This document shows positions 2,757 through 53,202 of a stretch of 64,000 bases of DNA, in pieces. Location: the NCBI GenBank assembly GCA_021849125.1, contig JAJZTG010000001.1:96422-160421 (forward strand), read 5' to 3'. Numbering within the stretch: the first letter of the stretch is position 1; the number at the start of each line of letters is the position of its first letter. A program made the translations under genes and the position numbers. This stretch comes from a bacterium. GTDB taxonomy: Bacteria > Patescibacteriota > Minisyncoccia > Phycocordibacterales > Phycocordibacteraceae. The notes below the pieces were generated by a model that saw nothing but the letters and a program-made list of their open reading frames with translations, ran no database searches and was not told where the DNA came from.

Positions 2757-2758
2757 AT

Positions 2759-3265: not shown

Positions 3266-3342
3266 GGGTGATATTTTACCTCATTCTAAAGCGACTCCCC
3301 CACGGGCTGTCATTCAAGTGAACAAAGGTCTAAAATACAGTT

Positions 3343-6465: not shown

Positions 6466-6477
6466 AGAGATTTCCCA

Positions 6478-6500
6478 AGTCATAAGAAATTTACTGCACT
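6478..6500. repeat. perfect 10-bp inverted repeat (tttactgcac tag gtgcagtaaa) just after the KAP gene stop
   Basis: Read directly from the sequence. There is no downstream T-run, so it is either a terminator-like hairpin or a protein-binding or recombination site. Confidence 0.4.
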
Positions 6501-6664
6501 AGGTGCAGTAAACTCTCTCTATGCATAAAACTCACGGTCGAAAAGCTAGCAAATAAGCCATTGCGCAAAAGTTTTAGGGCAAAATCATAATTCCGTCGTA
6601 CACGTATCGTACTTTTGCCAAGATTGTGGAATACATTTGCTCGCTTCTGTGCGATTGTCTATAC

Positions 6665-7297: not shown

Positions 7298-7309
7298 AAG
7301 TAACTTTTC

Positions 7310-7870
7310 TTACTTAACTACCACCCATTCGCTCGCGGACCAGCCAGCTTCCCCGACCTTGTCTGAGTCGGCTTCGGCCGCCCCCTTGGTGACGCGCACT
7401 TTCGTCAGAGTCATGCTTGTGTCGATGACCCTTACCTCCGAGCCGTTATGGACACAGAACAGCCCTTCTTTGGTCAGGTCTAGAATGCCCAGGTAGTCCT
7501 TGGCAAGAAGCGCCTTTGTGTATTCGTCGTACACGGCCTTCGTAGGCGCGAGGCAAAGCGCTTGGGTTGGGTCATCATTGCCTGGAAGTCGAAGATACGC
7601 ATCTTGCCCGAGCGTCCGCGCTTCGCTTGGTCCAGCGTTTCTTTGTGTCGTAGCTGTAGCGTTCTCGGTGGCGCTGTTGATGGAACTGAGTACTGCTCCG
7701 AACAAGAAGAGGCCGACAAAGAGGCTGAAAACAGGATGGCGATGTGGCCAGCTTCGCAAATCAGATTGGCAATAAGGGCACTTCTTTGCAGCGGAGGGAA
7801 TATCCTTACTGCAATGTGGGCACGATTTTGTCTCTGCAGAGTTCTGAGTCATGGGAATTATGCGATCCAA
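7310..7870 (-). CDS. membrane protein with an N-terminal zinc ribbon (CPHC...CPYC) and a single TM helix
   Basis: Two CxxC pairs near the N-terminus, then the hydrophobic stretch VFSLFVGLFLFGAVL, then a soluble C-terminal domain. Confidence 0.5.
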   Translation of the reverse strand: MDRIIPMTQNSAETKSCPHCSKDIPSAAKKCPYCQSDLRSWPHRHPVFSLFVGLFLFGAVLSSINSATENATATTQRNAGPSEARTLGQDAYLRLPGNDDPTQALCLAPTKAVYDEYTKALLAKDYLGILDLTKEGLFCVHNGSEVRVIDTSMTLTKVRVTKGAAEADSDKVGEAGWSASEWVVVK

Positions 7871-7883
7871 TAATTCCCGTGCA

Positions 7884-8078
7884 GGACGCAGAAACCCGCC
7901 ACGGGCAATGAGGTTTCCCCCAAGGGCGGATCACGCCGAACCCCGTGACGGGTTTCTGCGCGTGATCCGACTTGAAGACCATGCCGCGGCCGGAGCCTTC
8001 GGTTTAGGTCCCGCCCCTCACGGGGCGCATATTCGTGTGTAGCACATGTTCATGATAGCCCAGAGCGGCTATCATCGG
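7884..8078 (+). ncRNA. structured RNA / regulatory leader with mutually exclusive hairpins
   Basis: Bases 7887-7905 are complementary to 7942-7960 (19 bp, one mismatch). Bases 7927-7936 are complementary to 7960-7969 (10 bp), and that second 3' arm abuts the 3' arm of the first hairpin. Further GC hairpins follow (cgcccctcacggggcg and tgatagcc..ggctatca). All of this sits upstream of the gene starting at 8129. Confidence 0.35.
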
Positions 8079-8128
8079 AACCCCTATCACTGACTTGCAG
8101 AAAAGCCAAGGAGGCATAGCATTTTGGT

Positions 8129-8899
8129 ATGAACGCTCACGAGGCTAGCACCTCGGTTTTTACAAGTGACCGTGATGTCATTGCGGAGATTGAGCGCATT
8201 TTGCCGCAGCCACTGGTCGATTCTCTGAAGGAGCGCATTTTACAGGACAGGGTGTACGATCCTGCCCATGCCGAAGCGTTCAGTCTCCTAAAGGAGGCAT
8301 TTCGTAAGATTGGTTTTCGAGTAAATAGAAAAACACTCGCCACAAAGCTAAGAGATTTTCAACGCGCCCTCGAGAGATTCGACGACGAGCTCATTTCAAA
8401 CTTTGCGTACGAACCACACCAAAAGCTATATGCTGTCCATCCAAGTCGTCGAAATGGCGTGGCTTTAATGCGTGAGCTTCGGCAGTCTTACGATCTGTTT
8501 GCAAAAACATACCGTCTTCTACTGAGCGAGGCTACAACTGCGTTCCATTCGTCAGTTGTGGAAGAGTCCGTCGAGCTCCAGAATCTCACAATCAGATTCT
8601 CGAATGAAGAGGGTGCAATCTATGTTGGTGAGAGTCGTTGCCAACTCCCGCCGTTCAAAAATGGCCACTATCTTTGCAGAGTCATGTTTACTAAACCGCC
8701 CAAAGTGCCAGTCGACTGGTCAGACGTGGCCAACGAAATGTTCGGCAAGGATCCCATAAGACGGGCAGAACGTCTTCGGTTAGAAAGAAAAGTTAGAGAT
8801 GCAATGTATGCAGTAAATCGAATCGTTGGGAAATTGAATACCCCCGATAAGTTATTTACCTGGAAAGACAAGACAATTATTCGAAACTATGGCCGATAA
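8129..8899 (+). CDS. hypothetical protein
   Basis: 256-aa ORF inside the low-GC mobile region with no motif I can recognise. Confidence 0.5.
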   Translation: MNAHEASTSVFTSDRDVIAEIERILPQPLVDSLKERILQDRVYDPAHAEAFSLLKEAFRKIGFRVNRKTLATKLRDFQRALERFDDELISNFAYEPHQKLYAVHPSRRNGVALMRELRQSYDLFAKTYRLLLSEATTAFHSSVVEESVELQNLTIRFSNEEGAIYVGESRCQLPPFKNGHYLCRVMFTKPPKVPVDWSDVANEMFGKDPIRRAERLRLERKVRDAMYAVNRIVGKLNTPDKLFTWKDKTIIRNYGR

Positions 8900-9049
8900 C
8901 TCTCAGGTGATTCACCTCTGAATTCTTTAGGCTGTCGCCAGCTCGTTTCTTTTTGAAGGAGTCATGAACGCTCCTGGTAAAACCCTCTGCTTTCTTGGCA
9001 GGTGCTCTTAGAGCGTTCATCCCTGTCAAGAAAGGAGCGGGCTTTACTC

Positions 9050-9229
9050 ATGGCAAGCCAGCAACTAGCACAGAAATTCAAAGATGCGATTGCAGAAGAT
9101 TTCGACAAAGAAGTCTCTCTCGACGACGCTAGCCGGATGCTCTCAGATCTGGTTGGTTATTTTGACCTGCTTGCGAAGTTGCGGCACCAAATAACGGATC
9201 AAAATCATGGATCAAAGAAATCAAATTGA
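9050..9229 (+). CDS. small hypothetical protein
   Basis: Internal ATG within ORF 9002..9229 (MASQQLAQKF...), lying in the mobile-element context. Confidence 0.3.
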   Translation: MASQQLAQKFKDAIAEDFDKEVSLDDASRMLSDLVGYFDLLAKLRHQITDQNHGSKKSN

Positions 9230-9964
9230 GGCAGTATTGAGGCTACATCTTAACGAAAGAGTTATCGCATTCCACCCAATATACGCAAAAATCTTGGGAG
9301 GAATTGAGGAGGCCATATTCTTTCAGCAGATTTGTTTTTGGAGCGATAAAGGTAAACGTGATGATGGTGCTATATACAAAACGTCTAAGGATATCGAGGA
9401 GGAGACAACGCTTAGCGATCGGGTACAGCGCCGCGTGAAGAAAAAATTCAGGAGCTCGGACTGCTTGAGATTTGGCTTGAGAAGGTCGGAGGCGGTCCTG
9501 TATGCCACTACCGCGTGCACTGGGATGTCCTGCGAAAATGCCTAAAGGATTTCTACCAACTGTCGGAATCCTCTATATATTCAGAAACTACTCCAAGAAA
9601 AAAGAATGCGGTTTCTTCAAAGCAAGAAACCGCAACCACCTCCTCCCGGGGGAAATTCAATGCCACGAACGTAAGGATGACCAGATATAAAAATCCTGCC
9701 GTGCAAGAAATCGTTGAGACGTTCGTGAGACAGTGCGAGAAAAATATGGGCATTGCCCCAGTAATCGGTGCAGACGACTTCCGCATGGCTTCTTATGCTC
9801 TCAACCGCGGAGGGCTTTCAAAGGAAATGGTGTTTGAGATGATTGATGATTGGTTCGCGCAGCCGACAAAGGATGGCGACATATTGCATCTCACCAGAGC
9901 CATCTCAAAGAGCAGAATCAATACCTATCGAGGAGAGAACGTTAACAGGTTCAAGAGATCTTAA
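9207..9964 (+). pseudogene. winged-HTH (replication-initiator-like?) gene split by a -1 frameshift at an A6 tract; pseudogene, homopolymer error or recoding
   Basis: ORF 9207..9545 reads ...LSDRVQRRVKKK across aag aaa aaa at 9438-9446. The -1 frame continues without a stop from 9416 as IQELGLLEIWLEKVGGGPVCHYRVHWDVL..., and runs into ORF 9515..9964. One extra A would fuse the two into a protein of roughly 250 aa. Confidence 0.4.
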
Positions 9965-10161
9965 TTAACTTTATGGAAACAAAAAACGAAAAAGGACGGG
10001 TGCTATCAGCAAGTGAACGACTGCGAGAAGACTTGGAGTATGCAATCGGCAGATTCGTCGAAAAACTAAAGAGAGAGATTGGAGTTCGTTAAGACTTGCA
10101 TTCCCGTCCCACGAAGGTACTATCCCGACCCCCGGGGATTACGGGACATAAAAACGGACCT

Positions 10162-11733
10162 ATGGAAAAAGCCATCATCTACACACGCGTTTCGTCGAAA
10201 GAGCAGGAAGAAACCGGCTACTCGCTCGATGCGCAGGAGCAGTTCCTAAAGGAATACGCTCAAAAGCTTGGGCTCCCGGTTGCCAAAATCTACAAGGTCA
10301 CCGAGTCCGCGAGTAAATGGCAACTGCGCAAGACGCTCGACGCCATGCTCGAATACGCTGTTGAGCACGATGTGAAAGTTATCCTTGGTGAGAAGATCGA
10401 TCGACTGACCCGCAGTCTCAAGGACGCCGCAATCATCGATGACTGGGTGCACGACGAGGACGGGCGTCAGGTGCACTTCGTCAAAGAACACTTCATCGTC
10501 AGCAAGGAAACGCGTGCGCACGATAACTTCGTGTGGGACATGAAGGTCGCTGTGGCGCGCTTCTACACAAACAATCTCTCGGAGGAAGTTAAGAAGGGTC
10601 AGAAGCAGAAGATTGCCGAGGGATGGTTGCCGACCAAGCCACCACTCGGTTACAAGACCGTCGGCGAAAAAGGAAAGAAGATCCACATGATCGATGACGA
10701 CAAGGCTCCGTTCGTGCGACGTATGTTCGAGATGTATTCGAGCGGTAACTACTCTGTCATCTCTCTTGCGGATGCAATGTATCGCGACGGGCTTCGGAAT
10801 CGCGCCAACAAGAAGGTTGGCAAGAGCCGCATGTACGACATGCTGCGCGATCCGTTCTACTACGGCGCGATGCAATGGAAGGGTCAGGTGTTTGCAGCCA
10901 AGCACGAGCCACTCATTTCCAAAGAACTCTTCGACCGCGTACAGGCGCTCTTAGCGCGACCGTTCAATCAACTCCAAATGCAGAAACACCTACCGGTGTT
11001 CAAGGCGAAGATGCGCTGTGGCGCGTGCGGCGGCTCGGTAACGTGGGAGACGCACAAGGGCTACTGGTACGGCCACTGCAACGGTTACAAGCGCAAGGAC
11101 ATGAAGGCAAAATGCGAAAGCCGCCACATCTTCCTGCGTCAGGACAGGATCGAGGAACTCATGTTCCCGTTGTTCGAAAAAGCTACACCCAAAGGCGCAC
11201 ATGTGATCGAAGTGCTGAAGGAGGCATTGAAGGAAAGCCACGCGGAAGAAGTCGACCGATTCGATGCGCAGCTCACAAGTCTCAACCTGACGATCGACCG
11301 ATCTCAACGACGACTCGAAACGATCTACGAGGACAAGCTAGATGGCAAGATTTCGGCGGAAATGTATGAAAGCTTGGCCAAGCGCTATTCCAGCGAGAAA
11401 GAGGCTGCTACGGGCGAAATTTCGCGCCTGAACCGGGGTAACAAGCGCTACTACGAGGCTGGGTATGCCATTCACGAGCTCGCTCTCCAGGCAGCGGCCA
11501 TTTACAGCGACGAAAAGACGACGAACGAGGATCGTCGGATGCTCCTGAGCTATGTTTTTTCGAACATCGAGCTAAACGGCGAAGAACCTAAGTTTTTCTA
11601 CACGCCAGCGTTCGATTTCGTGGTGAATTGGGTACCCAAGCTAAATTTGATTTTAGAACTCGAAAATAGCTTGGAAACTAAAAGACGAAATGGCGCTTTC
11701 GCGCCATCTCATCCTGTTCTGCTCCGCGGGTAG
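10162..11733 (+). CDS. large serine recombinase (integrase)
   Basis: N-terminal resolvase catalytic domain with IIYTRVSSKEQ (catalytic Ser). A recombinase domain follows, then a zinc ribbon CGACGG...HCNGYKRK and a coiled-coil C-terminus. The stop codon at 11731-11733 overlaps the tRNA 3' end. Confidence 0.9.
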   Translation: MEKAIIYTRVSSKEQEETGYSLDAQEQFLKEYAQKLGLPVAKIYKVTESASKWQLRKTLDAMLEYAVEHDVKVILGEKIDRLTRSLKDAAIIDDWVHDEDGRQVHFVKEHFIVSKETRAHDNFVWDMKVAVARFYTNNLSEEVKKGQKQKIAEGWLPTKPPLGYKTVGEKGKKIHMIDDDKAPFVRRMFEMYSSGNYSVISLADAMYRDGLRNRANKKVGKSRMYDMLRDPFYYGAMQWKGQVFAAKHEPLISKELFDRVQALLARPFNQLQMQKHLPVFKAKMRCGACGGSVTWETHKGYWYGHCNGYKRKDMKAKCESRHIFLRQDRIEELMFPLFEKATPKGAHVIEVLKEALKESHAEEVDRFDAQLTSLNLTIDRSQRRLETIYEDKLDGKISAEMYESLAKRYSSEKEAATGEISRLNRGNKRYYEAGYAIHELALQAAAIYSDEKTTNEDRRMLLSYVFSNIELNGEEPKFFYTPAFDFVVNWVPKLNLILELENSLETKRRNGAFAPSHPVLLRG

Positions 11734-11759
11734 GATTCGAACCTACGACCAACTCGTTA

Positions 11760-12363
11760 CACGTTCTCTCTTGTTACCAAGAGCGTGGACTATATCATCA
11801 CCCGTATCTGCGTCATGCAGATCGAGGGTGCGAGGCGCTTCCCCAGCCCCAGTTTTGGACTCAAAACTCGTTTGAATTCAAAACTGGAGCTGGGTACTCC
11901 CTTGCGGGATAGTCTCTAGACCTTCTCATCTTCCGATGAGCTTGGCTCGGGATTGCCCACAGCATTTCCTCTGTTAGGGGTTCCCCGAATTCACCTCGTG
12001 TTCGACCTAAATCTCTTTAGGAAGCTGCGTAATGCCTGCGTGCAATTCGCGGTGACAGTTCGCACAAACAAGAACGCATTTATCGATTTCTTCTTTGATC
12101 TTTTCCCAAGATCTCGTGAGACCTTTCGTCGAGAGACCGAAGTCTTTCTGGCTCGGATCTTTGTGATGAAAATCGAGTGCTCCTGAATAACGACTGTATC
12201 CGCACATAACGCACTTCCCGCCCTTGTATTCGCGCGCCATTTCTCGAAGCTTCTTTCGACGCTCCGAAACGGCTTTACGCAAGTACTCGGCACGGTCGGC
12301 ATAAGTCCTTTTCTCTTTTGGCATACTCATTTAAGTATACCACTCGGGTTTTGGACTTGAACC
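11760..12363 (-). mobile_element. group I self-splicing intron carrying an HNH homing endonuclease ORF
   Basis: R element AGAGACUA (plus-strand 11910-11919), S element GAUAUAGUCC (11788-11797), and a P9 hairpin CUCUUG-GUAA-CAAGAG just before the 3' splice site. The 5' exon ends in U and the intron ends in G. The HNH ORF lies in the same orientation, about 35 nt inside the intron. Confidence 0.65.
12007..12330 (-). CDS. HNH homing endonuclease (intron-encoded)
   Basis: 107 aa with CVMCGY ... DFHHKD ... LVCANCHRELH, the classic HNH Cys/His arrangement. Confidence 0.8.
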   Translation of the reverse strand: MSMPKEKRTYADRAEYLRKAVSERRKKLREMAREYKGGKCVMCGYSRYSGALDFHHKDPSQKDFGLSTKGLTRSWEKIKEEIDKCVLVCANCHRELHAGITQLPKEI

Positions 12364-12387
12364 ACAGCGAGCCGCTCTACCACTGAG

Positions 12388-12543
12388 CTACCGCGGAATG
12401 TATTTTCCTTCCGCGGCAGCTCAGGTCTGAGCTACCACCGAAGGGGCCGAGCGAAATATGAAAGTATTCTTTGCATATTTCCGAGGCCCCGAACGGGAGC
12501 AAGCAGTTGCGAAGCAATCTGCTTACCGCGGAATGTATTTTGT
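12388..12543. repeat. 18-bp direct repeat (taccgcggaatgtatttt) at 12388-12406 and 12526-12543, bracketing a GC-rich hairpin cluster
   Basis: The first copy covers the tRNA 5' end plus its immediate upstream sequence. The segment between the copies contains a long near-perfect hairpin (12447-12495). Confidence 0.5.
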
Positions 12544-12877
12544 TTTCAATACTTCTGCCCCGAAGGGCAGGTATTCGCATTCTAACCGAAAATCAGGATG
12601 CCGCAACGGTATGAAAACAGCCGCCCGGATGGGCGGCTGGCGATGAGGTGCTGTTTTAGCTCGATAGCGGCAGGTCTAGAAAATACGATGCCGATACCAT
12701 GAACAGCCCGGGGAATTGCTCAACTACTTCCGGTGGAAGTTTTTGAAGCTCCTCCCAGACCGAGGCCTGGGTAACTCCTCCTGCAGATGCTTCGCAAGCT
12801 TGTGTGATTTCGTTTTTCTCAACAGACATTGCAAACCTTTCTTCAATCAGTTAAAGAACATTCTCAAATGCAAAACC

Positions 12878-12916
12878 GGTGCGGAGACCGCATCGGTTCT
12901 ACTTTTTTATTATAGC
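12878..12916. terminator. bidirectional rho-independent terminator
   Basis: Hairpin ccggtgcgg-aga-ccgcatcgg flanked by an A-run on one side and a T-run on the other, lying 3' of the SET-domain gene. Confidence 0.5.
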
Positions 12917-12936
12917 ACGGAAAAGAATCCGCGCAA

Positions 12937-13347
12937 TCAGGCCTTCTGATGCTTCGCACAACGACAACCGAAAGGCTTGATGTGCTCGTCGAAATATTCT
13001 TCCCCGTAATCGTAGGTAAGCTCTTCGCCCGGCTTGATGCCCTTGATCGCATCGATCCAGACGCGGCCCTTTACGATATTCGGTTCGCAGTTGGGCTTGC
13101 AAGAATGATTGATGTAGCGAGCAAAGTTGTCGCGCTGGGTGCCGTCGATCGTCTTCCGGCTGTTTACCTCGAAGAGGTACTTGCTCTTGCTCGTGTATTC
13201 CTCTTCCTTGGAAATCTCGCGGCCGAAGTACTCGATGATCCGCTCCCCTTTCTTGAATGCGCGCGTCGCGAAAAGACCCAAACCTGCGCTTGAGCGCCCC
13301 ACGCGAAGCCCCTCCGGACACACCGGTTTCTTTTTCGTATCTGCCAT
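12937..13347 (-). CDS. SET-domain protein (putative protein-lysine methyltransferase)
   Basis: RYINHSCKPNC and GEELTYDYG motifs, plus a C-terminal Cys cluster (post-SET-like). Confidence 0.8.
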   Translation of the reverse strand: MADTKKKPVCPEGLRVGRSSAGLGLFATRAFKKGERIIEYFGREISKEEEYTSKSKYLFEVNSRKTIDGTQRDNFARYINHSCKPNCEPNIVKGRVWIDAIKGIKPGEELTYDYGEEYFDEHIKPFGCRCAKHQKA

Positions 13348-13356
13348 ATATCTTGC

Positions 13357-13746
13357 TTAGCTTTCAGTAGTAATGCCGTCGAAGTGCTCTTCGCGCTCGT
13401 CATCCTTGGTCGGCTGCACGGTGCCGTCCTTGTGCTCAGGCGGCGAGTAGAGCGTGTAGAGCTTCAGGTCCTCCTCGCCGGTATTGATGACGTTGTGGTG
13501 CGTCCCTTCCGGGATAACGACCGCGTCATCGGCTTTGACCGCATGCTCGATACCGTCGAGGATGACCGTCGCCGTACCAGCTTCGAAGCGGATGAACTGG
13601 TCAAGGTGGTGCACTTCCTCGCCGATCTCCTCGCCGGGCTTAAGTGCCATGAGAACGAGCTGGCTGTGTTTAGACGTGTAAAGGACGCGACGATAATCCG
13701 TGTTTTCGAGCGTCGCTTGCTCGATGTTGGTGAGATAGCCTTTCAT
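13357..13746 (-). CDS. cupin-domain protein
   Basis: Two His-containing cupin motifs (GEEIGEEVHHLDQF and IPEGTHHNVIN). Confidence 0.65.
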   Translation of the reverse strand: MKGYLTNIEQATLENTDYRRVLYTSKHSQLVLMALKPGEEIGEEVHHLDQFIRFEAGTATVILDGIEHAVKADDAVVIPEGTHHNVINTGEEDLKLYTLYSPPEHKDGTVQPTKDDEREEHFDGITTES

Positions 13747-13760
13747 ATACGGAAACTATA

Positions 13761-14423
13761 TCACGTACCCGGATGCGATCGTGGCCACTCGGCAAAGGAG
13801 CCCGCCTTCCGCTCCATGGAGTCAGCCGAGCGTACGTGCCGCCAGTTCCCTTTCGGTACGAGGTCGTAGTGCGGCGCAACGCTGATCGCATCGACGATGT
13901 CGTACAGATCCCGTTCGGCGGTGATCCACTCGGTACCGAAACGGCTCATGCGCATCGGCCGGCTGTAACACTCAAGCGTCTTCTCGCCCGAGGGCAAGAA
14001 CCACTCGTTGAAATACGAAAGCGCAAGCTCACGCGGCGTGCGGTAGATCGGGTCGCGAAAACGTAGGACCGCATGATTGGTCTTGCTTACCGCACCCCAG
14101 GCACCCCCACGCTTGTAGAGCGCGATCACGTGGTCGGTATCGCCCTTCCCCATCCTCGCGGAGAGGTCCATGATCAAGGGTGGTTCGCCGTGTATCCAAA
14201 GCGCCGTCGCAGCGAGGAGCGCTCCTTCGATGCAGTGCGCCTTCTGTTCACGCAAAACGCCGCGCGGACTCCGATAGGTCGGTCCTTCCTTTTCCCAGTT
14301 CATCGGGAGCGCATCGAGAAAATCCTGTATCGCGCTCGGTGTCGAAAGCCGAGAGAGCAGCTCATACTCCTCTTCGGAGAGGCCGGACCTCGCGCGAGTG
14401 AGACGGTCCATACGTATCAGCAT
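13761..14423 (-). CDS. hypothetical protein, possibly of the transglutaminase-like cysteine peptidase fold
   Basis: AHCIEGALLAATAL followed by DTDHVIALY gives a Cys/His/Asp spacing reminiscent of the transglutaminase core. This is weak evidence. Confidence 0.35.
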   Translation of the reverse strand: MLIRMDRLTRARSGLSEEEYELLSRLSTPSAIQDFLDALPMNWEKEGPTYRSPRGVLREQKAHCIEGALLAATALWIHGEPPLIMDLSARMGKGDTDHVIALYKRGGAWGAVSKTNHAVLRFRDPIYRTPRELALSYFNEWFLPSGEKTLECYSRPMRMSRFGTEWITAERDLYDIVDAISVAPHYDLVPKGNWRHVRSADSMERKAGSFAEWPRSHPGT

Positions 14424-36102: not shown

Positions 36103-36114
36103 AGCGCCGAAAAA

Positions 36115-36150
36115 AGAAAAAGGACGCGAAATGCGTCCTTTTTCTTTTTT
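36115..36150. terminator. bidirectional rho-independent terminator between nhaP and rpoD
   Basis: aaaaaggacgcgaaatgcgtccttttt followed by cttttttt. Confidence 0.7.
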
Positions 36151-36250
36151 CGAGTGATTAGTATGACTTCAGGTGGCGTGCCTTGTCGTGCGCAACATTG
36201 TTTACTTATGAACGAAGTGAATTAGTAAACAAGAAGTTCACATGATAAGG

Positions 36251-37540
36251 CTAATAGCTCTTCAAATGCCGTGCCTTATCATGAGTGCGGATCTTCTCCA
36301 AGGCTTTCGCTTCGATCTGGCGGATACGCTCGCGCGTGACGCCGAACTCCTTCCCTACCTCCTCGAGCGTATGATAGACGCCGTCCATGAGGCCATGACG
36401 CATCTCGAGGATCTTGCGCTCCTTCGGCGAGAGGTCGTTCAGAATCTCGCGTACCTGCTCGGAAAGGATACGCTCCGACGACTCCTGTACCGGGGATGGG
36501 ATCTTCTCGTCCGGGATGAAGTCCCCGAGCGTCGATTTTTCGTCGTCATCCGAACCGATCGGGTTCTCAAGCGAGAGCGTGTCCTGATTGATCTTCTCGA
36601 TCTGATAGATCTTCTCGGGTTCGACACCCATCTCTACCGCGATCTCTTCCGGCTGCGGGTCGCGGCCCAAGGCCTGAGCGAGACGGCGCGAGACCTGCTT
36701 GTACTTGGCGATGGTCTCCACCATGTGGACCGGGATGCGGATCGTGCGTGACTGGTCTGCAAGCGCACGCGTGATCGCCTGGCGGATCCACCAGGTCGCG
36801 TACGTCGAGAACTTGTAGCCTTTCTTCCAGTCGAACTTATCGACTGCGCGGAAAAGACCCAGGTTCCCTTCCTGGATGAGGTCGAGAAGCGTGAGATCAG
36901 GTGAACGGCCCACGTACTTCTTCGCGATCGAGACCACGAGGCGGAGGTTGCTCCTGGCGAGGATGTTACGCGCTTCGGCGTCGCCCTTCTCGATACGCTT
37001 CGCCAGCTCGCGCTCTTCCGCAGCGGTCAGAAGCGGATACTGACCGATCTCGCGGAGGTAGATCTGGATCGAGTCGTAGTTCGTCGAGTGCCGATCCTTG
37101 ATGTTGCGGGTCGCGAGGTATTCATCGGCACCGTCTTCGAGCATGCCACCCTCGAGAACATCGACACCGGCGGTCGCGAGACGCTCATAGAGCGACTCGA
37201 GGAAGCTCACGTCCTCCTCGATATGAGGGAACGACTTCAGGATCTCGTTGTACGTGACATAACCGCGCTCCTTACCTTTCTCGATCAGCTGTTCGGCTGA
37301 CATCGCTTTCTGCGAAAGCGCTTTCGCTTTTGCTCCCTTCTTCGCAGGGGCGCGCTTCACGACCTTCTTCTTCGGTGCGGCTTTCTTCGCGGTCGTACGC
37401 TTTACCGGTTTCTTCACCGGCTTCTTTATCGGCTTCTTCTTGGGTACAGCCTTCTTCACCGGCTTCTTTGCCGGCTTCGCTTTTTTGGTCGCGCTCGTAC
37501 GCGAAACGTTCTTCTTCTTTTTAGAAACGGTTTTTGCCAT
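36251..37540 (-). CDS. rpoD: RNA polymerase sigma-70 factor RpoD with a lysine-rich N-terminal extension
   Basis: Region 1.2/2 [24 protein letters not shown] and the region 4 HTH ([24 protein letters not shown]). The N-terminal ~70 aa are K/A/P-rich. Confidence 0.9.
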
Positions 37541-37576
37541 ACATGGAAATAAGTAAAAGTATGAAGTTGGTAGCCT

Positions 37577-39601: not shown

Positions 39602-39799
39602 TCGAAGTATACGGCGCGGAGGAATCCGCGTCTTTTCTTTTTATATTCCCTCCCCCAAGCGAGCAGGTATCAGAATCGGACAGTTGCGGAGGCGTTCATG
39701 CATGGTCTTTTGGTATTGCCGGAGACGCAGCGTGTGTAAGTCCGACTTACACACGCTAGACTTGCACACGCTGCGATGCCAAAAGATGAACGCTGGAGC

Positions 39800-48570: not shown

Positions 48571-50517
48571 ATGTCACCAGAAACGCTCCACGAGGGGCCC
48601 ATCACCATAACGCGCAAAGGCATGGGCTTCTTCTCAGTCGAGGGCACCGAGGAAGACCTCCTCATCCCCGTTGACCACACGAACCACGCCCTCTCGGGCG
48701 ACATCGTGAAAGTCGCCTCGACCGGCATGTATCGCGACCCTATGGGCCGCATGCCGCCGCGCGCCTCGGGTAAGGTCGTCGGGATCGTCTCACGCGCTCG
48801 CGAGACGTTCGTCGGCACCATCTACGAGGAGGGCGGCAAAGTGATGCTCTCGCCTGACTACAAGAAAATGCACGTACCCGTCGAGGTCCGGGATGCAGCG
48901 GGCGCGACACAGGGCGACAAGGTCGTCGTACGGATGCGCGGTTGGGAGGAGACCTCGCCGTACCCGTGGGGCACGGTCGATGAGATCATCGGCCGCTCCG
49001 GCGAGCACGATGTCGAGATGCGCGCGCTTGCGCTCGGCCAAGGATTCTCGCCGGTCTTCCCTCCTGCCGTCCTTGCCGAAGTGAAACGACTCGAGACCGA
49101 GGGCAGGCGTATGCTCGCCGAAGAAGCAGAAAAAGAGGGTCGGCGTGATTTCCGAAAAGTCACTACCTGTACCATCGACCCATTCGACGCGAAGGATTTC
49201 GACGACGCTCTTTCGGTGCGCGAATTGCCCGATGGCAACGTCGAGGTCGGCATCCATATCGCCGACGTCTCGTTCTTCGTGAAGCCCGGCAACGCGCTTG
49301 ATACCGAGGCGCGCGAACGCGCGACCTCGGTCTACCTCGTTGACCGCACGATCCCGATGCTTCCCGAGATCCTTTCGACCGACCTCTGTTCCCTGAATCC
49401 GAACCAGGACCGTCTTGCCGTCTCGGCCGTTTTCACACTCGATCGCGAGGCGAACATCATTGATGAATGGTTCGGCGAGACGGTGATCCACTCCGACAAG
49501 CGCTTCACCTACGAAGAGGCCCAGGGCGTACTCGACGCGGGTGAAGGCGTGCTTCATCAAGAGCTTGCTACCCTGCTCGCGCTCTCGCAGAAGATCCGCG
49601 CGCGCCGCAAGGCAAAGGGTGCCGTCGATTTCGATACGCCTGAAGTGAAGATCGAGCTCGACGCGAGCGGTAAGCCGGTCGCGATCCGCTTGAAGGAACG
49701 CAAAGCGACGAACCTCATGATCGAGGACTTCATGCTCCTTGCAAACGAAGCGGTGGCGAAGCATCTCTCAGAGCTCACGAAAAACGGTGGGGCGCACTTC
49801 GCGTCGCTCTACCGCATCCACGACGAGCCGGACACGGACCGCATCGGCAACCTCGCAAACCTCCTGCGCGTCTTGGGCTACCACCTGAAGACCTCGCCGA
49901 CCGGTAAGGTTTCCGGCACCGAGCTCAATCGTCTCCTTGCAGAGGTGGCCGGTACGCCCGAGGAATACCTGGTGAAGACCGCAACCCTGCGCTCGATGAG
50001 CAAAGCCGTCTACGCGACTCGCAATATCGGCCACTACGGGCTCGCCTTCGATTTCTATACGCACTTCACTTCCCCGATCCGCCGCTATCCTGACCTCGTG
50101 ATCCACCGCCTCGTGAAGGCACATGCTGGCGGCGATCCGATCACGCCCGCAGAGATGCAGGCCTTCGACCGGCTCGCCGCGCACGCCTCTGAGCGCGAAG
50201 TCGCGGCAGCCGATGCCGAGCGCTCCTCAGTCAAGATGAAGCAGGTAGAGTTCCTCGCTGATCGCATCGGCGAAGAGTTCGACGCGGTCATCTCTGGTGT
50301 CACCGATCGCGGCGTCTATGTCGAGGAACAGACGACGCATGCTGACGGCATGATTCTCATCAGGAACCTAGGCGACGATTATTTCGAATACGACGAGAAG
50401 CGCTACCAGGTCATCGGCCGTCGCACCAAGAAGGCCTACCGCCTGGGTGACCCCATCCGAGTCAAATTGATGGCAGCTCGTGTTGCAGAAAAAGAGTTAG
50501 ATTTTGTGCCTGCTTAA
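48571..50517 (+). CDS. rnr: ribonuclease R (RNB-family 3'-5' exoribonuclease)
   Basis: N-terminal cold-shock-like domains, an RNB catalytic domain (CTIDPFDAKDFDDALS) and a C-terminal S1 domain. Confidence 0.9.
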   Translation: MSPETLHEGPITITRKGMGFFSVEGTEEDLLIPVDHTNHALSGDIVKVASTGMYRDPMGRMPPRASGKVVGIVSRARETFVGTIYEEGGKVMLSPDYKKMHVPVEVRDAAGATQGDKVVVRMRGWEETSPYPWGTVDEIIGRSGEHDVEMRALALGQGFSPVFPPAVLAEVKRLETEGRRMLAEEAEKEGRRDFRKVTTCTIDPFDAKDFDDALSVRELPDGNVEVGIHIADVSFFVKPGNALDTEARERATSVYLVDRTIPMLPEILSTDLCSLNPNQDRLAVSAVFTLDREANIIDEWFGETVIHSDKRFTYEEAQGVLDAGEGVLHQELATLLALSQKIRARRKAKGAVDFDTPEVKIELDASGKPVAIRLKERKATNLMIEDFMLLANEAVAKHLSELTKNGGAHFASLYRIHDEPDTDRIGNLANLLRVLGYHLKTSPTGKVSGTELNRLLAEVAGTPEEYLVKTATLRSMSKAVYATRNIGHYGLAFDFYTHFTSPIRRYPDLVIHRLVKAHAGGDPITPAEMQAFDRLAAHASEREVAAADAERSSVKMKQVEFLADRIGEEFDAVISGVTDRGVYVEEQTTHADGMILIRNLGDDYFEYDEKRYQVIGRRTKKAYRLGDPIRVKLMAARVAEKELDFVPA

Positions 50518-50595
50518 GCCGCCCGCCACCACACCAACCAGGTTGGTGTGGTGGCGGGCGTCGCCGAGAAGGAGCTCGATTTCGTCCCGGCATAA
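50518..50595 (+). repeat. 39-bp perfect palindrome followed by an in-frame, synonymously recoded duplicate of the last 11 rnr codons plus a second stop
   Basis: The palindrome is 50521-50559. Bases 50560-50595 encode VAEKELDFVPA*, identical to the rnr C-terminus, but 9 of 11 codons differ. The whole 26-codon extension is in frame with rnr. Confidence 0.6.
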
Positions 50596-50602
50596 AATAA
50601 AA

Positions 50603-50650
50603 CAGCAAGGCGTGACCTTGCTGTCGCATACGTTTGATACGGTTTTGTTG
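50603..50650. terminator. bidirectional terminator hairpin
   Basis: cagcaagg-cgtga-ccttgctg, with T-rich sequence on the plus strand and an A-rich run on the other side. Confidence 0.55.
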
Positions 50651-50651
50651 T

Positions 50652-50939
50652 TTACTGTGGCCGGTAAGCTTTGAGCGCATCCCTTTCAGTGCGCGTGTTC
50701 AATGACTTGAGGAATGTCATCACATCGTTCGTCTGGTCCTCTGGGACTTGCCGCGAGGCAGAAGCCATGTTGGAGCCGAATATAGTAACAACGACTCCTT
50801 CATAGACCTCTTGACCGCCGTCCTCGCCACCGGAAACTTTCTCTACCGTCATAAAACAGGTCGATACTGTAGCTCCCACGGGACTCCTAGCGGTTACGCC
50901 TACACAAAAACTGCCTTCTAAAGAACTCTTTCCGCTCAT
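50652..50939 (-). CDS. hypothetical small protein
   Basis: 95-aa ORF downstream of smc with its own terminator and no recognisable motif. Confidence 0.3.
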   Translation of the reverse strand: MSGKSSLEGSFCVGVTARSPVGATVSTCFMTVEKVSGGEDGGQEVYEGVVVTIFGSNMASASRQVPEDQTNDVMTFLKSLNTRTERDALKAYRPQ

Positions 50940-50994
50940 CTCCTTCTCCTTCCTTTTTCAGTTGTTGGAGTGTGGGGACTATATCACAAGCCTT

Positions 50995-53202
50995 TTATTT
51001 CGCTACCTGCACCGCTTCGTCGAACTTTACGGAAAGGAGTTTCGAGACGCCGTCATTACCCATCGTGACGCCATAGAGGATGGAGGCGCGGCTCATGGTC
51101 TCGCGGTTGTGCGTGATGACGATGAGCTGCGAGCGCTTCGCGAGGTTGTCGATCATGTCGCCATAGCGGCGGCTGTTCGCTTCGTCGAGTGCCGCATCGG
51201 TCTCGTCGAGGATGAGGAACGGCGGCGGGTTCACCTGGCTCATCGCGAAGATAAGCGCGATCGAGGTAAGCGCGCGCTCGCCGCCTGAAAGCTGCATGAG
51301 AGAGCGGACCTTCTTCTTCGGAAGATTCACGGCGATCTCGATACCCGGACGTGCCTTTTCTTTCGGCTCACCGAGCATCTCTTCTTCATCCTCTTCAGGT
51401 TCTTCCTCCGCTTCAAGCGCGAGTCGCGCGCCGCCGCCGCCGAACATGAGCGCGAAGTACTCGCTGAAGGATGCGTTCACTTTCGCGAGTCCATCGGAGA
51501 AATGCTTCGCCAGCTCCTCATCGAGGTCGTCGATGAGCGTTCTGAGGCTCGCTGCAGATTTCGCGAGGTCTTCGAGCTCGTTTGCAAGGAACGCTTCGCG
51601 CTGTTTCGTCTCGACGTACTCCTGACGCACATCCTCGCCGGTGCCGCCCGCTTCCTCGAGACGGATCTCGATACGATCGAGCGCGCGCTTGCGCTCCTCC
51701 TGCACGTGCCGATCTTCTTCGGGGAGTGCCGTGAGCGGCTCGTAGGTGACCGCTGCCATGCCGGCCAAGGTTGCCGCTTCAGCCTTCGCGCGATCAAGCT
51801 CGCCCGCGAGAAGCTCGAGCTCGCGTTCCTTTGCCGAGCATGCGGCAAGCACGCCTTCTTCATGCGCTTTCGTCTGTGCGAGCTCAAGAATACGACGGCG
51901 CATCTCACGGCCGGTCTCGTCGTGGGCAGTGAGCGCCTCGCGCGCACGCGAAAGCGCCGAACGAGCCTCTTCAAGCTCACCTGCGAGCGCCTTCTCTTTC
52001 GCGAGAAGTTCCGTGTGCTGGTTCCCGAGCGCATACGCTTCTCGTTCCTCTTCGGCAAGGAGGTCATCCGTCGGGGCGACGAAGCGCGAGACGAAAAGCT
52101 TGATAAGGTCGCCTACAGCGGAGAGCGTCGCACGGATCGCCTCGGGTGTCGTCGCTTCCGCGATCTGCTTCTCGACTTCTTTCGCAAGCGTCGCGAGGTC
52201 TTCGCGCGGCACTTTGGCGTACGGTTCACGCGCAACCTTCTGACTACGTTCCTTTGCGGCAGCAAGCGCACCTTCGACGCGACCGATCTCACGTGCAAGC
52301 TGTTCACGCTCGCCATTCAGCCGTTCGACTTCCCGCTCGGCCTTACGCACGTGATCAAGACGTTTGATACCTTCCGCATCGGTCGTAACGCGCTCTTCGA
52401 TGCTCGCGAGCTCGGCGGAAGCGACTGCAAGACGTTCGGTCGCCGCGTGCTTCGCCGCGGCGTTCGTCTCTTTCGTATGTGCGAGGTAGCAGTCCTCGAT
52501 CGCGAAGTACGTCTGTGCGAGACTCGTGAGCTCGACGCGCAAACCGTCGGCACGCTCAAGCTTCTCGACCTGCTTCTCGAGGAAACGCAGGTGCGGTGAG
52601 ATCTCGCGACGAAGCGCATTTACCTCCGTGATATTCTCATCCGTCTTCTCAAGCTTCCGGATCGCTTCCTGTTTCTTGAACTCGAAGAGCTTGAGTCCGA
52701 GCGCGTCCTCAAGCATCGCTCTGCGGTCCCGCGGCGAAGCGAGGAGAATGCGGTCCGCCTCGCCTTGAGAGATGATATGGTGCCCGGTCTCGCCGATGTT
52801 CGCCCCGGCAAGAAGCTCCTCGATGTCGCGCAAGCGGACACGCGAACCGTTGATCGAGTATTCGCTCGTGCCATCGCGGAAGACGGCGCGTTCGATCGCA
52901 ACCTCGTCGAAGTCGATCTTGAACGGGCGATTGCCGCCTACGGGCGTATTGCTGAACACGATCGTCACGGCTGCACGGTTTGCCCGCGGTACCATGTGCG
53001 ATCCGCCCCAGATGAGGTCCTCCGCGCGCTTCCCGCGCATGCTCTTCATCGACTGCTCGCCGAGCGCGAAACGGAACGCCTCGGCGACATTCGACTTACC
53101 GGAGCCATTGGGGCCGACGATAGCGGTCGTCGCGCTCCCGAACTCGAGCGCGGTCTTCTTGGCAAACGATTTGAACCCGACGATCTCCAGTCGCTTCAAC
53201 AT
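50995..53202 (-). CDS. smc: SMC-family chromosome partition ATPase (short, apparently hinge-less)
   Basis: N-terminal head FKSFAKKT...GPNGSGKSN, C-terminal LSGGERALTSIALIFA signature and D-loop LILDETDAALD. Only 735 aa, with an alanine-rich coiled coil and no obvious hinge. Confidence 0.75.
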   Translation of the reverse strand: MLKRLEIVGFKSFAKKTALEFGSATTAIVGPNGSGKSNVAEAFRFALGEQSMKSMRGKRAEDLIWGGSHMVPRANRAAVTIVFSNTPVGGNRPFKIDFDEVAIERAVFRDGTSEYSINGSRVRLRDIEELLAGANIGETGHHIISQGEADRILLASPRDRRAMLEDALGLKLFEFKKQEAIRKLEKTDENITEVNALRREISPHLRFLEKQVEKLERADGLRVELTSLAQTYFAIEDCYLAHTKETNAAAKHAATERLAVASAELASIEERVTTDAEGIKRLDHVRKAEREVERLNGEREQLAREIGRVEGALAAAKERSQKVAREPYAKVPREDLATLAKEVEKQIAEATTPEAIRATLSAVGDLIKLFVSRFVAPTDDLLAEEEREAYALGNQHTELLAKEKALAGELEEARSALSRAREALTAHDETGREMRRRILELAQTKAHEEGVLAACSAKERELELLAGELDRAKAEAATLAGMAAVTYEPLTALPEEDRHVQEERKRALDRIEIRLEEAGGTGEDVRQEYVETKQREAFLANELEDLAKSAASLRTLIDDLDEELAKHFSDGLAKVNASFSEYFALMFGGGGARLALEAEEEPEEDEEEMLGEPKEKARPGIEIAVNLPKKKVRSLMQLSGGERALTSIALIFAMSQVNPPPFLILDETDAALDEANSRRYGDMIDNLAKRSQLIVITHNRETMSRASILYGVTMGNDGVSKLLSVKFDEAVQVAK

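What the first reader, a model, noticed from the sequence alone, without database searches (positions are those of the whole stretch)
50473..50595. rnr C-terminus encoded twice in frame with different codons, flanking a 39-bp perfect palindrome
rnr ends ...AARVAEKELDFVPA* with AT-rich codons. Directly after the stop the frame continues as AAR-HHTNQVGVVAG-VAEKELDFVPA*. The HHTNQVGVVAG insert is exactly the perfect palindrome, and the repeated 11-residue end uses GC-rich synonymous codons. Identical peptide with divergent codons implies selection on the protein sequence of both copies, or a gene-conversion or insertion event that supplied a replacement 3' end. The palindrome may be a miniature inserted element or a terminator that was later domesticated.
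Basis: seen in the sequence. Interest (0 to 1): 0.55.

Follow-up and report, generated by a model that had tools for sequence, protein, structure and literature searches.

The report
Imported gene end, stranded original, palindrome
In this uncultured CPR (Kaiserbacteria-like) bacterium, the last ~20 codons of the RNase R gene were overwritten by a foreign, differently coded copy that sits next to a small perfect palindrome, and the original gene end is stranded untranslated just downstream; related genomes carry the same kind of scar at this and other housekeeping genes.

Summary
A second, GC-rich copy of the same 14 residues follows in frame, split by a 41-bp perfect palindrome (50520-50560).

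The downstream copy is the resident gene end. It is 90% identical to the functional end of the closest relative (96% aa). The upstream copy (from ~50458) drops to 63% identity and best matches the equivalent patches in two distant relatives. All 13 nucleotide differences between the copies are synonymous, so they diverged as working genes in different lineages and were joined by horizontal transfer.

Readthrough is not supported: in 2 of 4 genomes with this architecture the orphan is out of frame.

The rnr-smc gap is an insertion hot spot, ranging from 0-2 nt to over 2 kb. Nine loci carry orphan rnr ends, with hicAB, a RAYT-like transposase flanked by similar palindromes, or only a hairpin in between. 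Orphan ends also occur at smc, trmD and a sigma-factor gene in this window.

The palindrome keeps perfect pairing through 7 two-sided changes. It is probably a REP-like hairpin element, but it is single-copy in these 64 kb. How the insertion happened is inferred, not shown.

The parts
48571..50517 (+). Functional rnr (RNase R/II family, 648 aa).
   Evidence: ORF list. Pfam RNB 8e-110, plus CSD2, OB_RNB and S1. Called as a gene in GCA_027321305.1.
50458..50517 (+). Imported AT-rich replacement 3' end (RVKLMAARVAEKELDFVPA*), the surrogate end now used by the gene.
   Evidence: Identity to the nearest relative L085 falls from 88.7% to 62.7% at about 50458. GC3 is 0.18-0.25 against 0.77 for the gene. 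Best matches are the equivalent patches in L002 and L084, at 29/33. The patch brings a T-to-M change relative to L085.
50518..50526 (+). GCCGCCCGC (AAR codons), the conserved point where every orphan copy begins. Here it directly abuts the TAA.
   Evidence: The same 9-mer follows the stop in L002 and L084, and a decayed version follows it in L024. It starts the orphan copies in L006, L021 and L032.
50520..50560 (.). 41-bp perfect palindrome (20-nt arms, 1-nt centre), a REP-like hairpin element.
   Evidence: The RNA fold of 50500-50630 gives -70.9 kcal/mol, z = -7.95. In 4 genomes the 13-14 core pairs are 100% paired, with 7 pairs changed on both sides.
50527..50559 (+). 33 nt that are extra relative to an uninterrupted gene end (the 'HHTNQVGVVAG' stretch). 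They interrupt the orphan between its AAR and VAEKELDF parts.
   Evidence: Comparison with the uninterrupted ends of L085 and about 120 homologues. L002 and L084 have an insert of the same length but different sequence.
50560..50595 (+). Displaced resident 3' end of rnr (the orphan, VAEKELDFVPA*). It lies after the functional stop, so it is not part of the called ORF.
   Evidence: 27/30 nt (90%) identical to the functional end of L085, the same as the gene-wide identity. It is the best match among all loci. GC3 is 0.82, like the host gene.
50601..50625 (-). Terminator-like hairpin with a T-run on the minus strand (end of the smc-side transcript).
50596..50994 (.). About 400 nt of lineage-specific, apparently non-coding filler between the orphan and the smc stop. 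It contains a called 95-aa ORF (50652-50939, minus strand) that is doubtful.
   Evidence: GC3 is about 0.5 in all six frames, against 0.73-0.77 in neighbouring genes. No Pfam or NCBIfam hit. No similarity to relatives. In several relatives rnr and smc are only 0-3 nt apart.
50995..53202 (-). Convergent smc-like gene, the other border of the insertion hot spot.
   Evidence: SMC_N, AAA_23. Its C-terminus GVSKLLSVKFDEAVQVAK* was read. Orphan copies of this gene end occur in relatives.

Best explanation
The structure is a scar of horizontal DNA insertion into the end of an essential-type gene, at a recurrent hot spot: the gap between the convergent rnr and smc genes of Kaiserbacteria-like CPR bacteria.

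A short foreign segment from an AT-richer relative now forms the last ~20 codons and the stop of rnr (50458-50517). The resident end was pushed downstream. It survives as an untranslated orphan (50518-50526 plus 50560-50595), interrupted by a 33-nt insert that completes a 41-bp perfect palindrome.

Shown here: which copy is resident and which is imported; that the architecture recurs in independent genomes; that the same gap carries cargo (hicAB, a RAYT-like transposase, others) flanked by orphan gene ends in relatives; and that the palindrome's pairing is maintained.

Inferred: the segment entered by recombination after DNA uptake. The left crossover would lie in the conserved LGDPIRVKL-coding region, and the right junction at the GC-rich AAR 'core' just 3' of the palindrome. 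The donor would already have carried a surrogate end, hairpin and orphan array. Such arrays would originally arise by Campbell-type or illegitimate integration of DNA that carries its own copy of the gene end, followed by loss of cargo.

Only pairs of copies with very different codons persist, because similar direct repeats would recombine and delete the insert.

The palindrome is most likely a REP-like hairpin related to those that flank the RAYT-like gene in the same gap in relatives. It has no demonstrated role. It would also form a very stable stem-loop 3 nt after the rnr stop in the mRNA.

The confidence of 0.6 is for the whole statement. By part: about 0.9 that copy 2 is resident and copy 1 imported; about 0.5 that the palindrome is REP-like; about 0.4 for the recombination route.
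For: 1. Resident versus imported. Window versus L085 (96% aa) is 88.7% nt identical up to 50457 and 62.7% in 50458-50508. The orphan is 90% identical to L085's functional end.

2. Copy 1 is closest to the corresponding patches of L002 and L084 (29/33). Together with TAA+GCCGCCCGC it is about 93% identical to L002, although the genes are only 73% identical. L002 and L084 have 72% identical gene bodies but an approximately 94% identical module with sharp borders.

3. All 13 differences between the copies are synonymous, which means they diverged as functional orthologues.

4. Recurrence. Orphan rnr ends are found in the window, L002, L006, L012, L013, L021 (3 copies), L024 (3 copies), L032 and L084. 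The rnr-smc gap ranges from 0-3 nt to over 2 kb.

5. Cargo between copies. hicA/hicB occurs in L021, L032 and L084. A Y1_Tnp/RAYT-like gene flanked by 29-33-nt perfect palindromes occurs in L006, L012 and L013, and also in L011. An aspartyl-protease-like ORF occurs in L024.

6. Not rnr-specific. There are smc orphans (L006, L008/L022, L009, L084), trmD orphans (L008/L022, L021), and a sigma-factor gene in this window (36158-36286, minus strand) with the same polarity: an AT-rich functional end and a GC-rich orphan.

7. Palindrome. There are two sequence families at the identical site and of nearly equal length. The core is 100% paired, 7 pairs changed on both sides, and there is one compensated change within a family.

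8. Natural competence has been shown experimentally only in Saccharibacteria, another CPR lineage (PMC10633639).
Against: - No recombinase, integrase or transposase lies between the copies or elsewhere in the 64-kb window (for RAYT only).
- The two junctions in the window do not share an identical core (GCAGCTCGT versus GCCGCCCGC).
- No natural donor genome with this exact AT-rich end as its own end was found. The metagenome scan gave only L084, which is itself a recipient.
- The palindrome is single-copy in 64 kb, perfect rather than imperfect, and lacks a GTAG-type motif, so REP membership is unproven.
- The surrogate end and the hairpin co-occur in 4 of 4 'empty' sites. This could mean they move as one dedicated element rather than by general recombination.
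- In some cargo-bearing relatives (for example L032), the downstream copy rather than the upstream one looks foreign, so polarity is not uniform.
- Only one close relative (L085, a 2.4-kb contig) anchors the 'resident' assignment.
Confidence: 0.6

Rival explanations
1. Dedicated mobile mini-element. The unit [spare gene end + stop + GCCGCCCGC + perfect palindrome] is itself a non-autonomous element. A trans-acting enzyme, for example a RAYT-like HUH Y1 transposase or an unidentified recombinase that recognises the hairpin, inserts it at the GCCCGC of the AAR codons. It carries a spare gene end so that insertion is harmless.
For: - The surrogate end and hairpin co-occur in all four 'empty' sites: the window, L002, L084 and L024.
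- In L002 the 27-nt palindrome is flanked by a perfect 6-nt direct repeat, GCCCGC.
- The unit is about 94% identical between genomes whose rnr genes are 72% identical.
- RAYT-like genes with palindromes of the same geometry sit in the same gap in four relatives.
- Palindromy is strictly maintained.
Against: - The flanks are not a direct repeat in the window (GCCCGC versus GCGGGC) or in L084.
- The unit and the palindrome each occur once in 64 kb.
- The sigma, smc and trmD cases have unrelated spacers without this hairpin, so a single element family cannot explain them all.
- The left border of imported DNA differs between genomes: about 50458 in the window, but at the AAR codons in L002 and L084.
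Confidence: 0.15
2. Integrase-type site-specific integration. A larger integrative cassette with an attP that mimics the rnr end integrated here, as phage e14 does in E. coli icd. Its cargo was later deleted, leaving attL, a recombinase-site-like palindrome and attR.
For: - The topology (a functional element-derived end and an orphan resident end) is that of icd/icdC around e14 (PMC13626634).
- All orphan copies begin at the same conserved GCCGCCCGC.
- There are tandem arrays with several orphans in L021, L024 and L084.
- A 27-29-bp palindrome has the dimensions of a simple recombinase site.
Against: - No integrase was found in any cassette examined. The cargo ORFs scanned against Pfam or NCBIfam matched only HicA, an UPF0150-like family (read here as the HicB antitoxin), an aspartyl protease and Y1_Tnp, or nothing.
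- The left borders of the orphans vary from 11 to about 24 codons.
- The copy that looks foreign is upstream in some loci and downstream in others, which suggests variable crossover points.
- Three different genes would need three different site specificities.
Confidence: 0.12
3. Damage then repair. A palindromic element first inserted in frame into the working rnr gene, adding 11 residues to the S1 domain. A foreign gene end acquired upstream was then selected because it restored a normal C-terminus.
For: - The hairpin insert is 33 nt, which is in frame, in both the window and L002.
- No homologue among 120 has such an insertion in its functional protein, which is consistent with the insertion being deleterious.
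- The hairpin never occurs without a surrogate end.
Against: - It requires the same illegitimate junction (TAA directly before GCCGCCCGC) to arise repeatedly, or else a single origin followed by spread, which collapses into the main explanation.
- The orphans in L084 and L024 are out of frame.
Confidence: 0.08
4. Both copies are expressed. Stop-codon readthrough or alternative termination would give RNase R with a 26-residue extension that repeats the last strand, and selection would keep both peptide copies identical.
For: The second copy is in frame and identical in peptide in the window, and in frame in L002.
Against: - The frame is broken by 1 nt in L084 and differs in L024.
- The orphan peptides differ from the functional ends in L002, L012 and L032.
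- The stop is TAA.
- The orphan's similarity to L085 is explained by recent displacement.
- The arginine codon next to the hairpin has become GGC (Gly).
Confidence: 0.03
5. Assembly or chimeric-binning artefact joining reads from two strains.
For: The sequence comes from a metagenome-assembled genome. Two alleles of one gene end lying side by side could in principle arise from strain mixing.
Against: - The same architecture is found in three other independent assemblies from different projects (L002, L024, L084).
- The identical protein is carried on 3 contigs.
- The junctions are clean, and the palindrome sits between the copies rather than at a contig edge.
Confidence: 0.02

Closest known systems
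Prophage e14 / phage 21 integration into the 3' end of E. coli icd (icd plus the icdC pseudogene)
   Same: The inserted DNA supplies a replacement C-terminal coding segment that differs mainly by synonymous changes. The resident 3' end is left as an untranslated fragment on the far side. Recombination between the two copies gives chimeric but functional genes (PMC13626634).
   Different: e14 is a 15-kb prophage with its own integrase and a defined att core. Here only about 100 nt lie between and around the copies, there is no recombinase, there is no shared core in the window, and the same thing happens at several genes.
C-terminal duplications next to homing-endonuclease genes in fungal mitochondrial genes (atp6, cob)
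   Same: Partial C-terminal duplicates of conserved genes lie just downstream of the intact gene, associated with mobile ORFs (PMC6279837). The foreign copy keeps the host gene intact.
   Different: Those are linked to GIY-YIG or LAGLIDADG endonuclease ORFs and to homing by double-strand-break repair. No endonuclease ORF was recognised here or in the relatives' cassettes.
REP / REPIN sequences and their RAYT (REP-associated tyrosine transposase)
   Same: A short extragenic palindrome sits right after a stop codon between convergent genes. Relatives have a Y1_Tnp/RAYT-like gene flanked by two palindromes of the same size and geometry in this very gap. The sequence differs between lineages while the structure is kept, as expected for RAYT-REP co-evolution (PMC3116915).
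   Different: REPs are imperfect palindromes present in tens to hundreds of copies. This one is perfect and single-copy in 64 kb, and no RAYT is in the window. The RAYT-like hit in relatives is below NCBIfam's cut-off (41.5 bits against 80).
C-terminal displacement and orphan modules in Rhs/CdiA toxin loci (from my own knowledge, not checked here)
   Same: Incoming DNA replaces the 3' end of a gene by recombining in a conserved upstream segment. Earlier ends accumulate downstream as orphans that retain a piece of the conserved segment, forming arrays.
   Different: There the new ends encode different toxins and are selected for diversity. Here the ends encode the same housekeeping peptide, and the variable part is the cargo or nothing.
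SCCmec-type tandem elements at the 3' end of rlmH (orfX), and 'minimal mobile elements' of Neisseria (from my own knowledge, not checked here)
   Same: A hot spot bordered by conserved genes. Cassettes without their own mobility genes are exchanged or stacked, and direct repeats containing the last codons of the bordering gene separate them.
   Different: SCC uses Ccr serine recombinases and an identical 15-18-nt site. Minimal mobile elements leave no orphan gene ends.

Membership tests
Gene-end-reconstituting integrative element (e14/icd type) | The gene's 3' end is present twice, flanking the inserted DNA. The copy fused to the gene is foreign and the distal copy is resident. | tested here: met
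   identity to L085 is 62.7% for copy 1 and 90% for copy 2.
Gene-end-reconstituting integrative element (e14/icd type) | An integrase or recombinase is encoded by the inserted DNA. | tested here: not met
   There is no ORF between the copies in the window. Cargo in relatives is hicAB, an aspartyl-protease-like ORF, Y1_Tnp-like genes and unknowns.
Gene-end-reconstituting integrative element (e14/icd type) | An identical att core at both junctions. | tested here: inconclusive
   The window has GCAGCTCGT versus GCCGCCCGC, which are not identical. L002, L006, L021 and L032 share GCCGCCCG at both copies, but these are also simply the preferred AAR codons.
REP / REPIN (RAYT-mobilised palindromes) | A short palindromic sequence able to form a hairpin. 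| tested here: met
REP / REPIN (RAYT-mobilised palindromes) | Extragenic location. | tested here: met
   It begins 3 nt after the functional TAA, inside a non-translated orphan.
REP / REPIN (RAYT-mobilised palindromes) | Many dispersed copies in the same genome. | tested here: not met
   One copy in 64 kb with up to 3 mismatches. Single arms occur only at this site. The rest of the genome could not be searched.
REP / REPIN (RAYT-mobilised palindromes) | A cognate RAYT gene flanked by the same palindromes. | tested here: inconclusive
   There is none in the window (tblastn). RAYT-like genes flanked by palindromes of the same geometry but different sequence lie in the same gap in L006, L011, L012 and L013.
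Intrinsic (Rho-independent) terminator | A GC-rich stem followed by a U/T tract. | tested here: not met
   The stem is present, but GTCGCCGAGAAGG follows it and the scan does not call it. Other hairpins in the window carry A/T tails.
Programmed readthrough / dual C-terminus | The downstream coding segment is kept in frame and conserved across relatives. | tested here: not met
   It is in frame in the window and L002, but out of frame in L084 (an extra A) and L024.
MITE (terminal inverted repeats plus target-site duplication, multicopy) | A direct target-site duplication flanking the inverted repeats. | tested here: inconclusive
   L002 has GCCCGC on both sides. L084 has GCCCGC/GCGCGC. The window has GCCCGC/GCGGGC, which is an inverted rather than a direct repeat.
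Rickettsia-type palindromic elements inserted in frame in expressed ORFs | The element is translated as part of a functional protein. | tested here: not met
   It lies after the stop. None of 120 homologues has an insertion between AAR and (I/V)AEKELDF.

The most novel reading that the evidence does not exclude
Kaiserbacteria-like CPR bacteria may harbour a previously undescribed class of gene-end-mimicking cassettes. These would be small DNA units, sometimes only a perfect ~30-bp palindrome and sometimes carrying hicAB or a RAYT-like gene, that insert into the last codons of conserved housekeeping genes (rnr, smc, trmD, a sigma factor). They would bring a recoded spare copy of those codons, so that insertion into compact genomes with almost no intergenic space is harmless. 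They would be moved by an enzyme acting in trans on the hairpin, possibly the RAYT-like HUH transposase.
Probability: 0.15. Interest if true: 0.75.

Novelty: new variant of a known kind. Interest (0 to 1): 0.5.

Why it matters
CPR bacteria have tiny, tightly packed genomes; rnr and smc stop codons can be 0-3 nt apart. How they gain and lose accessory genes is poorly understood.

This locus suggests one route. DNA enters at the ends of conserved convergent genes and keeps those genes intact by supplying its own copy of the last codons. The stranded orphan ends then record past insertions, including which end is foreign.

Such orphans could be used for three things:
- mapping insertion hot spots and horizontal transfer in uncultured lineages;
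- explaining mosaic 3' ends and odd codon usage at gene termini;
- avoiding mis-annotation of readthrough or frameshifted genes.

If a dedicated hairpin-guided mechanism exists, it would be a new kind of mobile element. It might also offer a site-specific insertion tool for organisms that have only recently become genetically tractable.

Tried and rejected
- **Synthetic recoding or refactoring.** Rejected. The source is a natural CPR metagenome-assembled genome, and relatives show the same architecture.
- **Palindrome as a multicopy repeat in the window.** There is only one copy, and single arms occur only here.
- **Viral collection scan for the AT-rich end.** No hits.
- **Viral collection scan for the hairpin.** Two hits in an unrelated AT-rich phage, judged to be chance.
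- **Metagenome scan for the AT-rich end.** One locus, L084, which is another recipient rather than a donor.
- **Phage and plasmid BLAST of the module.** No match.
- **Rfam.** Only sub-threshold miRNA-hairpin noise on the palindrome.
- **Integron attC reading.** Considered, but the R''/R' box order does not fit.
- **dif/Xer-site reading.** Considered, but nothing resembling dif was seen by eye.
- **The 95-aa ORF downstream as cargo.** It has no coding signature and no family hit.
- **The L084 direct repeat GGTATCCAAGACTT flanking hicAB as a general cassette border.** It is specific to L084.
- **Small CGACCG-centred hairpins as a common cassette motif.** Not general.
- **Four more relatives fetched to find further hairpin modules.** None was found. 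They show either a tight rnr-smc junction or cargo without orphans.
Full report
**1. What is in the sequence**

The 648-aa ORF at 48571-50517 is an RNase R/II-family gene (Pfam RNB 8e-110, CSD2, OB_RNB, S1). It ends ...RVKLMAARVAEKELDFVPA-TAA.

The frame then continues GCC GCC CGC (AAR), 33 nt reading HHTNQVGVVAG, then GTC GCC GAG AAG GAG CTC GAT TTC GTC CCG GCA TAA, which is VAEKELDFVPA* again and ends at 50595.

A perfect palindrome with 20-nt arms occupies 50520-50539 and 50541-50560. It is unique in the window, even allowing 3 mismatches or searching for single arms.

The two 14-codon copies differ at 13 of 42 nt, in 12 of 14 codons, and always synonymously. None of 200,000 random placements of 13 substitutions is fully synonymous.

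GC3 is 0.18 for the upstream copy, 0.82 for the downstream copy and 0.77 for the gene. The only correction is that the palindrome is 41 bp and includes part of the AAR codons.

**2. Source, and whether it could be an artefact**

The identical protein is carried on contig DAHVJR010000005.1 of GCA_027321305.1 and on two other contigs. The relatives are Candidatus Kaiserbacteria/Paceibacteria MAGs.

The same layout (stop, GCCGCCCGC, palindrome, second gene end) appears in three independent assemblies:
- L002 (JANLIU010000046);
- L084 (JGI Ga0209514_10003504, found by a pattern scan);
- L024, in a decayed form.

A misassembly is therefore very unlikely.

**3. Which copy is resident**

The closest relative is P0001 on L085, at 96% aa identity. 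It has a single, GC-rich end.

Window versus L085 is 88.7% identical at the nucleotide level from the start codon to 50457. Identity is only 62.7% in 50458-50508. The downstream orphan (50560-50589) is 90% identical to L085's functional end, the same as the gene-wide figure.

Among all fetched loci, L085 is the best match of the orphan. The equivalent patches of L002 and L084 are the best matches of the upstream copy.

The downstream copy is therefore the resident end. The last ~60 nt of the working gene are imported, and they bring a T-to-M change at the KL(M)AAR position.

Purely synonymous divergence means the two ends evolved as working gene ends in different lineages before being joined. 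It does not mean both are under selection in this genome.

In L084 an extra A after TAA puts the orphan out of frame. In L024 it is also in another frame. So 2 of the 4 sites are out of frame. I take that as no evidence that selection keeps the frame, and it argues against readthrough.

**4. A recurrent hot spot**

In relatives the stop codons of the convergent rnr and smc genes are separated by anything from 0-3 nt (L004, L017, L028, L087-L089) to more than 2 kb.

Extra copies of the rnr end lie downstream of the gene in L002, L006, L012, L013, L021 (three copies), L024 (three copies), L032 and L084. The copies in L002, L006, L021 and L032 begin at the AAR codons GCCGCCCGC. The left border varies, from 11 to about 24 codons.

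Between the copies lie:
- hicA/hicB toxin-antitoxin pairs (L021, L032, L084);
- an aspartyl-protease-like ORF plus a small ORF (L024);
- a Y1_Tnp/RAYT-like gene flanked by two 29-33-nt perfect palindromes of the AGGACATC(C/G)GATGTCCT family (L006, L012, L013; also L011, with a different hairpin and no orphan);
- nothing but a hairpin (the window, L002, L084 and the first interval of L024).

No integrase was seen in any cassette.

The copy that looks foreign by composition is the upstream one in the window but the downstream one in L032. This is what variable crossover points within a short homologous segment would give.

**5. Not specific to rnr**

Orphan copies of the smc end occur in L006, L008/L022, L009 and L084. 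In L008 the functional end has AT-rich codons and the orphan GC-rich ones, as in the window.

trmD ends are duplicated in L008/L022 and triplicated in L021, with two allelic end types swapping roles between genomes.

In the window itself, a scan of all ORFs found one more case. This is the sigma-70-like gene on the minus strand (36251-37576). It ends ...[11 protein letters not shown] in AT-rich codons, is followed by a 60-nt AT-rich spacer, and then by [10 protein letters not shown] in GC-rich codons, with Ser AGC versus TCA.

Imported gene ends with stranded originals are therefore a general feature of these genomes.

**6. The palindrome**

Four genomes have a palindrome at the same place inside the orphan: after GCCGCCCG and before GC(C/G)(C/G)GC plus the rest of the gene end.
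- The window and L024 share arms CCACCACACCAA.
- L002 and L084 share CCCCGTTAGAAAT.

The inserts are nearly the same length, 28-29 nt between the flanks.

On the alignment, the 13-14 core pairs are paired in every sequence. Seven pairs differ on both sides, including one compensated change within the first family. Sliding the partner by 1-3 columns drops pairing from 87% to about 40%. The palindromic form is therefore maintained or regenerated, while the neighbouring flank in L024 has decayed by three transitions.

L002 and L084 share a module that is about 94% identical, with sharp borders, although their rnr genes are 72% identical. This shows horizontal movement of the module.

The hairpin has no T-run and is not called as a terminator. 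Typical terminators in this window have A/T tails.

As RNA it would be a very stable stem-loop 3 nt after the stop. The fold of 50500-50630 gives -70.9 kcal/mol, z = -7.95.

Its geometry matches the palindromes flanking the RAYT-like genes in the same gap in relatives. The most economical reading is a REP-like hairpin, possibly a solo remnant.

REP membership fails on copy number in the 64 kb available, and no RAYT is present in the window. Definitions follow PMC3116915.

**7. Mechanism (inferred)**

I think the window acquired a ~100-nt heterologous segment from an AT-richer relative that already carried a surrogate end, hairpin and orphan array. The segment comprises the surrogate end, the stop, the AAR remnant and the hairpin.

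The left crossover would be in the conserved LGDPIRVKL-coding stretch (about 50446-50458). The right junction would be immediately 3' of the palindrome, so that the recipient's own end became the orphan.

Natural competence has been shown experimentally in another CPR lineage, Saccharibacteria (PMC10633639).

The first formation of such arrays needs either Campbell-type integration of a circular molecule carrying a copy of the gene end, or an illegitimate join. L006 and L084 show complete 'rnr-end ... smc-end' units stacked in the order expected for that. Cargo loss would then leave minimal scars.

Pairs of copies with similar DNA would recombine and delete the insert, so only strongly recoded pairs persist. 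This explains the striking codon difference.

A dedicated hairpin-guided element, an integrase-type cassette with lost cargo, and a damage-then-repair sequence remain possible. I give them lower probabilities.

**8. Comparison with known systems**

The topology is that of e14 in E. coli icd: the gene extends into the element, with the icdC pseudogene at the far end (PMC13626634). It also resembles the C-terminal duplications next to homing-endonuclease ORFs in fungal mitochondria (PMC6279837).

From my own knowledge, it also resembles orphan C-terminal modules in Rhs/CdiA loci and stacked SCC elements at rlmH.

It differs from all of these in several ways. There is no recombinase or endonuclease. 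It is minimal in size. It is associated with strictly perfect palindromes. It occurs at several housekeeping genes in CPR genomes.

I therefore rate it a new variant of a known kind, of moderate interest. The 'selection on both copies' alternative is not.

Noticed in passing
window 36158-36286 (minus strand), downstream end of the gene at 36251-37576: A second case of a C-terminus encoded twice. The sigma-70-like gene ends ...[11 protein letters not shown] in AT-rich codons. A 60-nt AT-rich spacer with an inverted repeat (TTGTTTACT..AGTAAACAA) follows, then [10 protein letters not shown] in GC-rich codons (Ser AGC versus TCA), then a large terminator hairpin at 36108-36152.
   Followed up: partly
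L008/L022 5000-5120, L009 5900-6030, L006 about 3435, L084 about 651 (smc). L008/L022 about 1528 and L021 about 552 and about 760 (trmD): Orphan copies of the 3' ends of smc and trmD lie downstream of the functional genes in relatives. Spacers are sometimes only 26-80 nt and sometimes contain cargo. Two allelic trmD end types swap between the functional and orphan roles in L008 and L021.
   Followed up: partly
L006 3465-4195, L012 5020-5745, L013 5030-5760, L011 4960-5700: A 217-aa Y1_Tnp/RAYT-like gene (Pfam 1e-8; NCBIfam REP_Tyr_transpos 41.5 bits, below the cut-off) lies immediately downstream of rnr. In L006, L012 and L013 it is flanked by 29-33-nt perfect palindromes whose central bases are complementary between the two copies. 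L011 has a different, imperfect hairpin at each end of the gene. L085, the closest relative of the window, has one such palindrome that supplies the rnr stop codon.
   Followed up: partly
window 11767-12054 (minus strand): A group I intron (Rfam RF00028, 62.6 bits) lies in the low-GC left part of the window. The host gene was not examined.
   Followed up: no
window 7895-8010 (minus strand): A LOOT RNA match (Rfam RF03000, 48.9 bits), just above the gathering score.
   Followed up: no
window 1-14000: The first ~14 kb have a clearly lower GC content (0.46-0.53) than the rest (0.56-0.63). This may be a foreign or mobile region.
   Followed up: no
window 39729-39772: An intergenic 29-nt perfect palindrome (AGCGTGTGTAAGTC C GACTTACACACGCT) has the same geometry as the rnr palindrome and is followed by a third partial arm (AGACTTGCACACGCT). 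It may be another REP-like hairpin.
   Followed up: no
window 50596-50994: About 400 nt between the orphan and smc have no coding signature (GC3 about 0.5 in all frames) and no similarity to relatives. The called 95-aa ORF there is doubtful. This may be a relic of lost cargo or a non-coding RNA.
   Followed up: partly
L084 100-113 and 627-640: A 14-nt direct repeat, GGTATCCAAGACTT, flanks the hicAB cassette in L084 only. A third rnr-end copy begins at the edge of that locus.
   Followed up: partly
L021 about 590, L026 about 413, L032 about 1142: A conserved intergenic motif, CATAAGTnTAACGGTCGTTA (a small hairpin centred on CGACCG), lies downstream of trmD in several relatives. Similar small hairpins occur in L021 cassettes. 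Its meaning is unknown.
   Followed up: no
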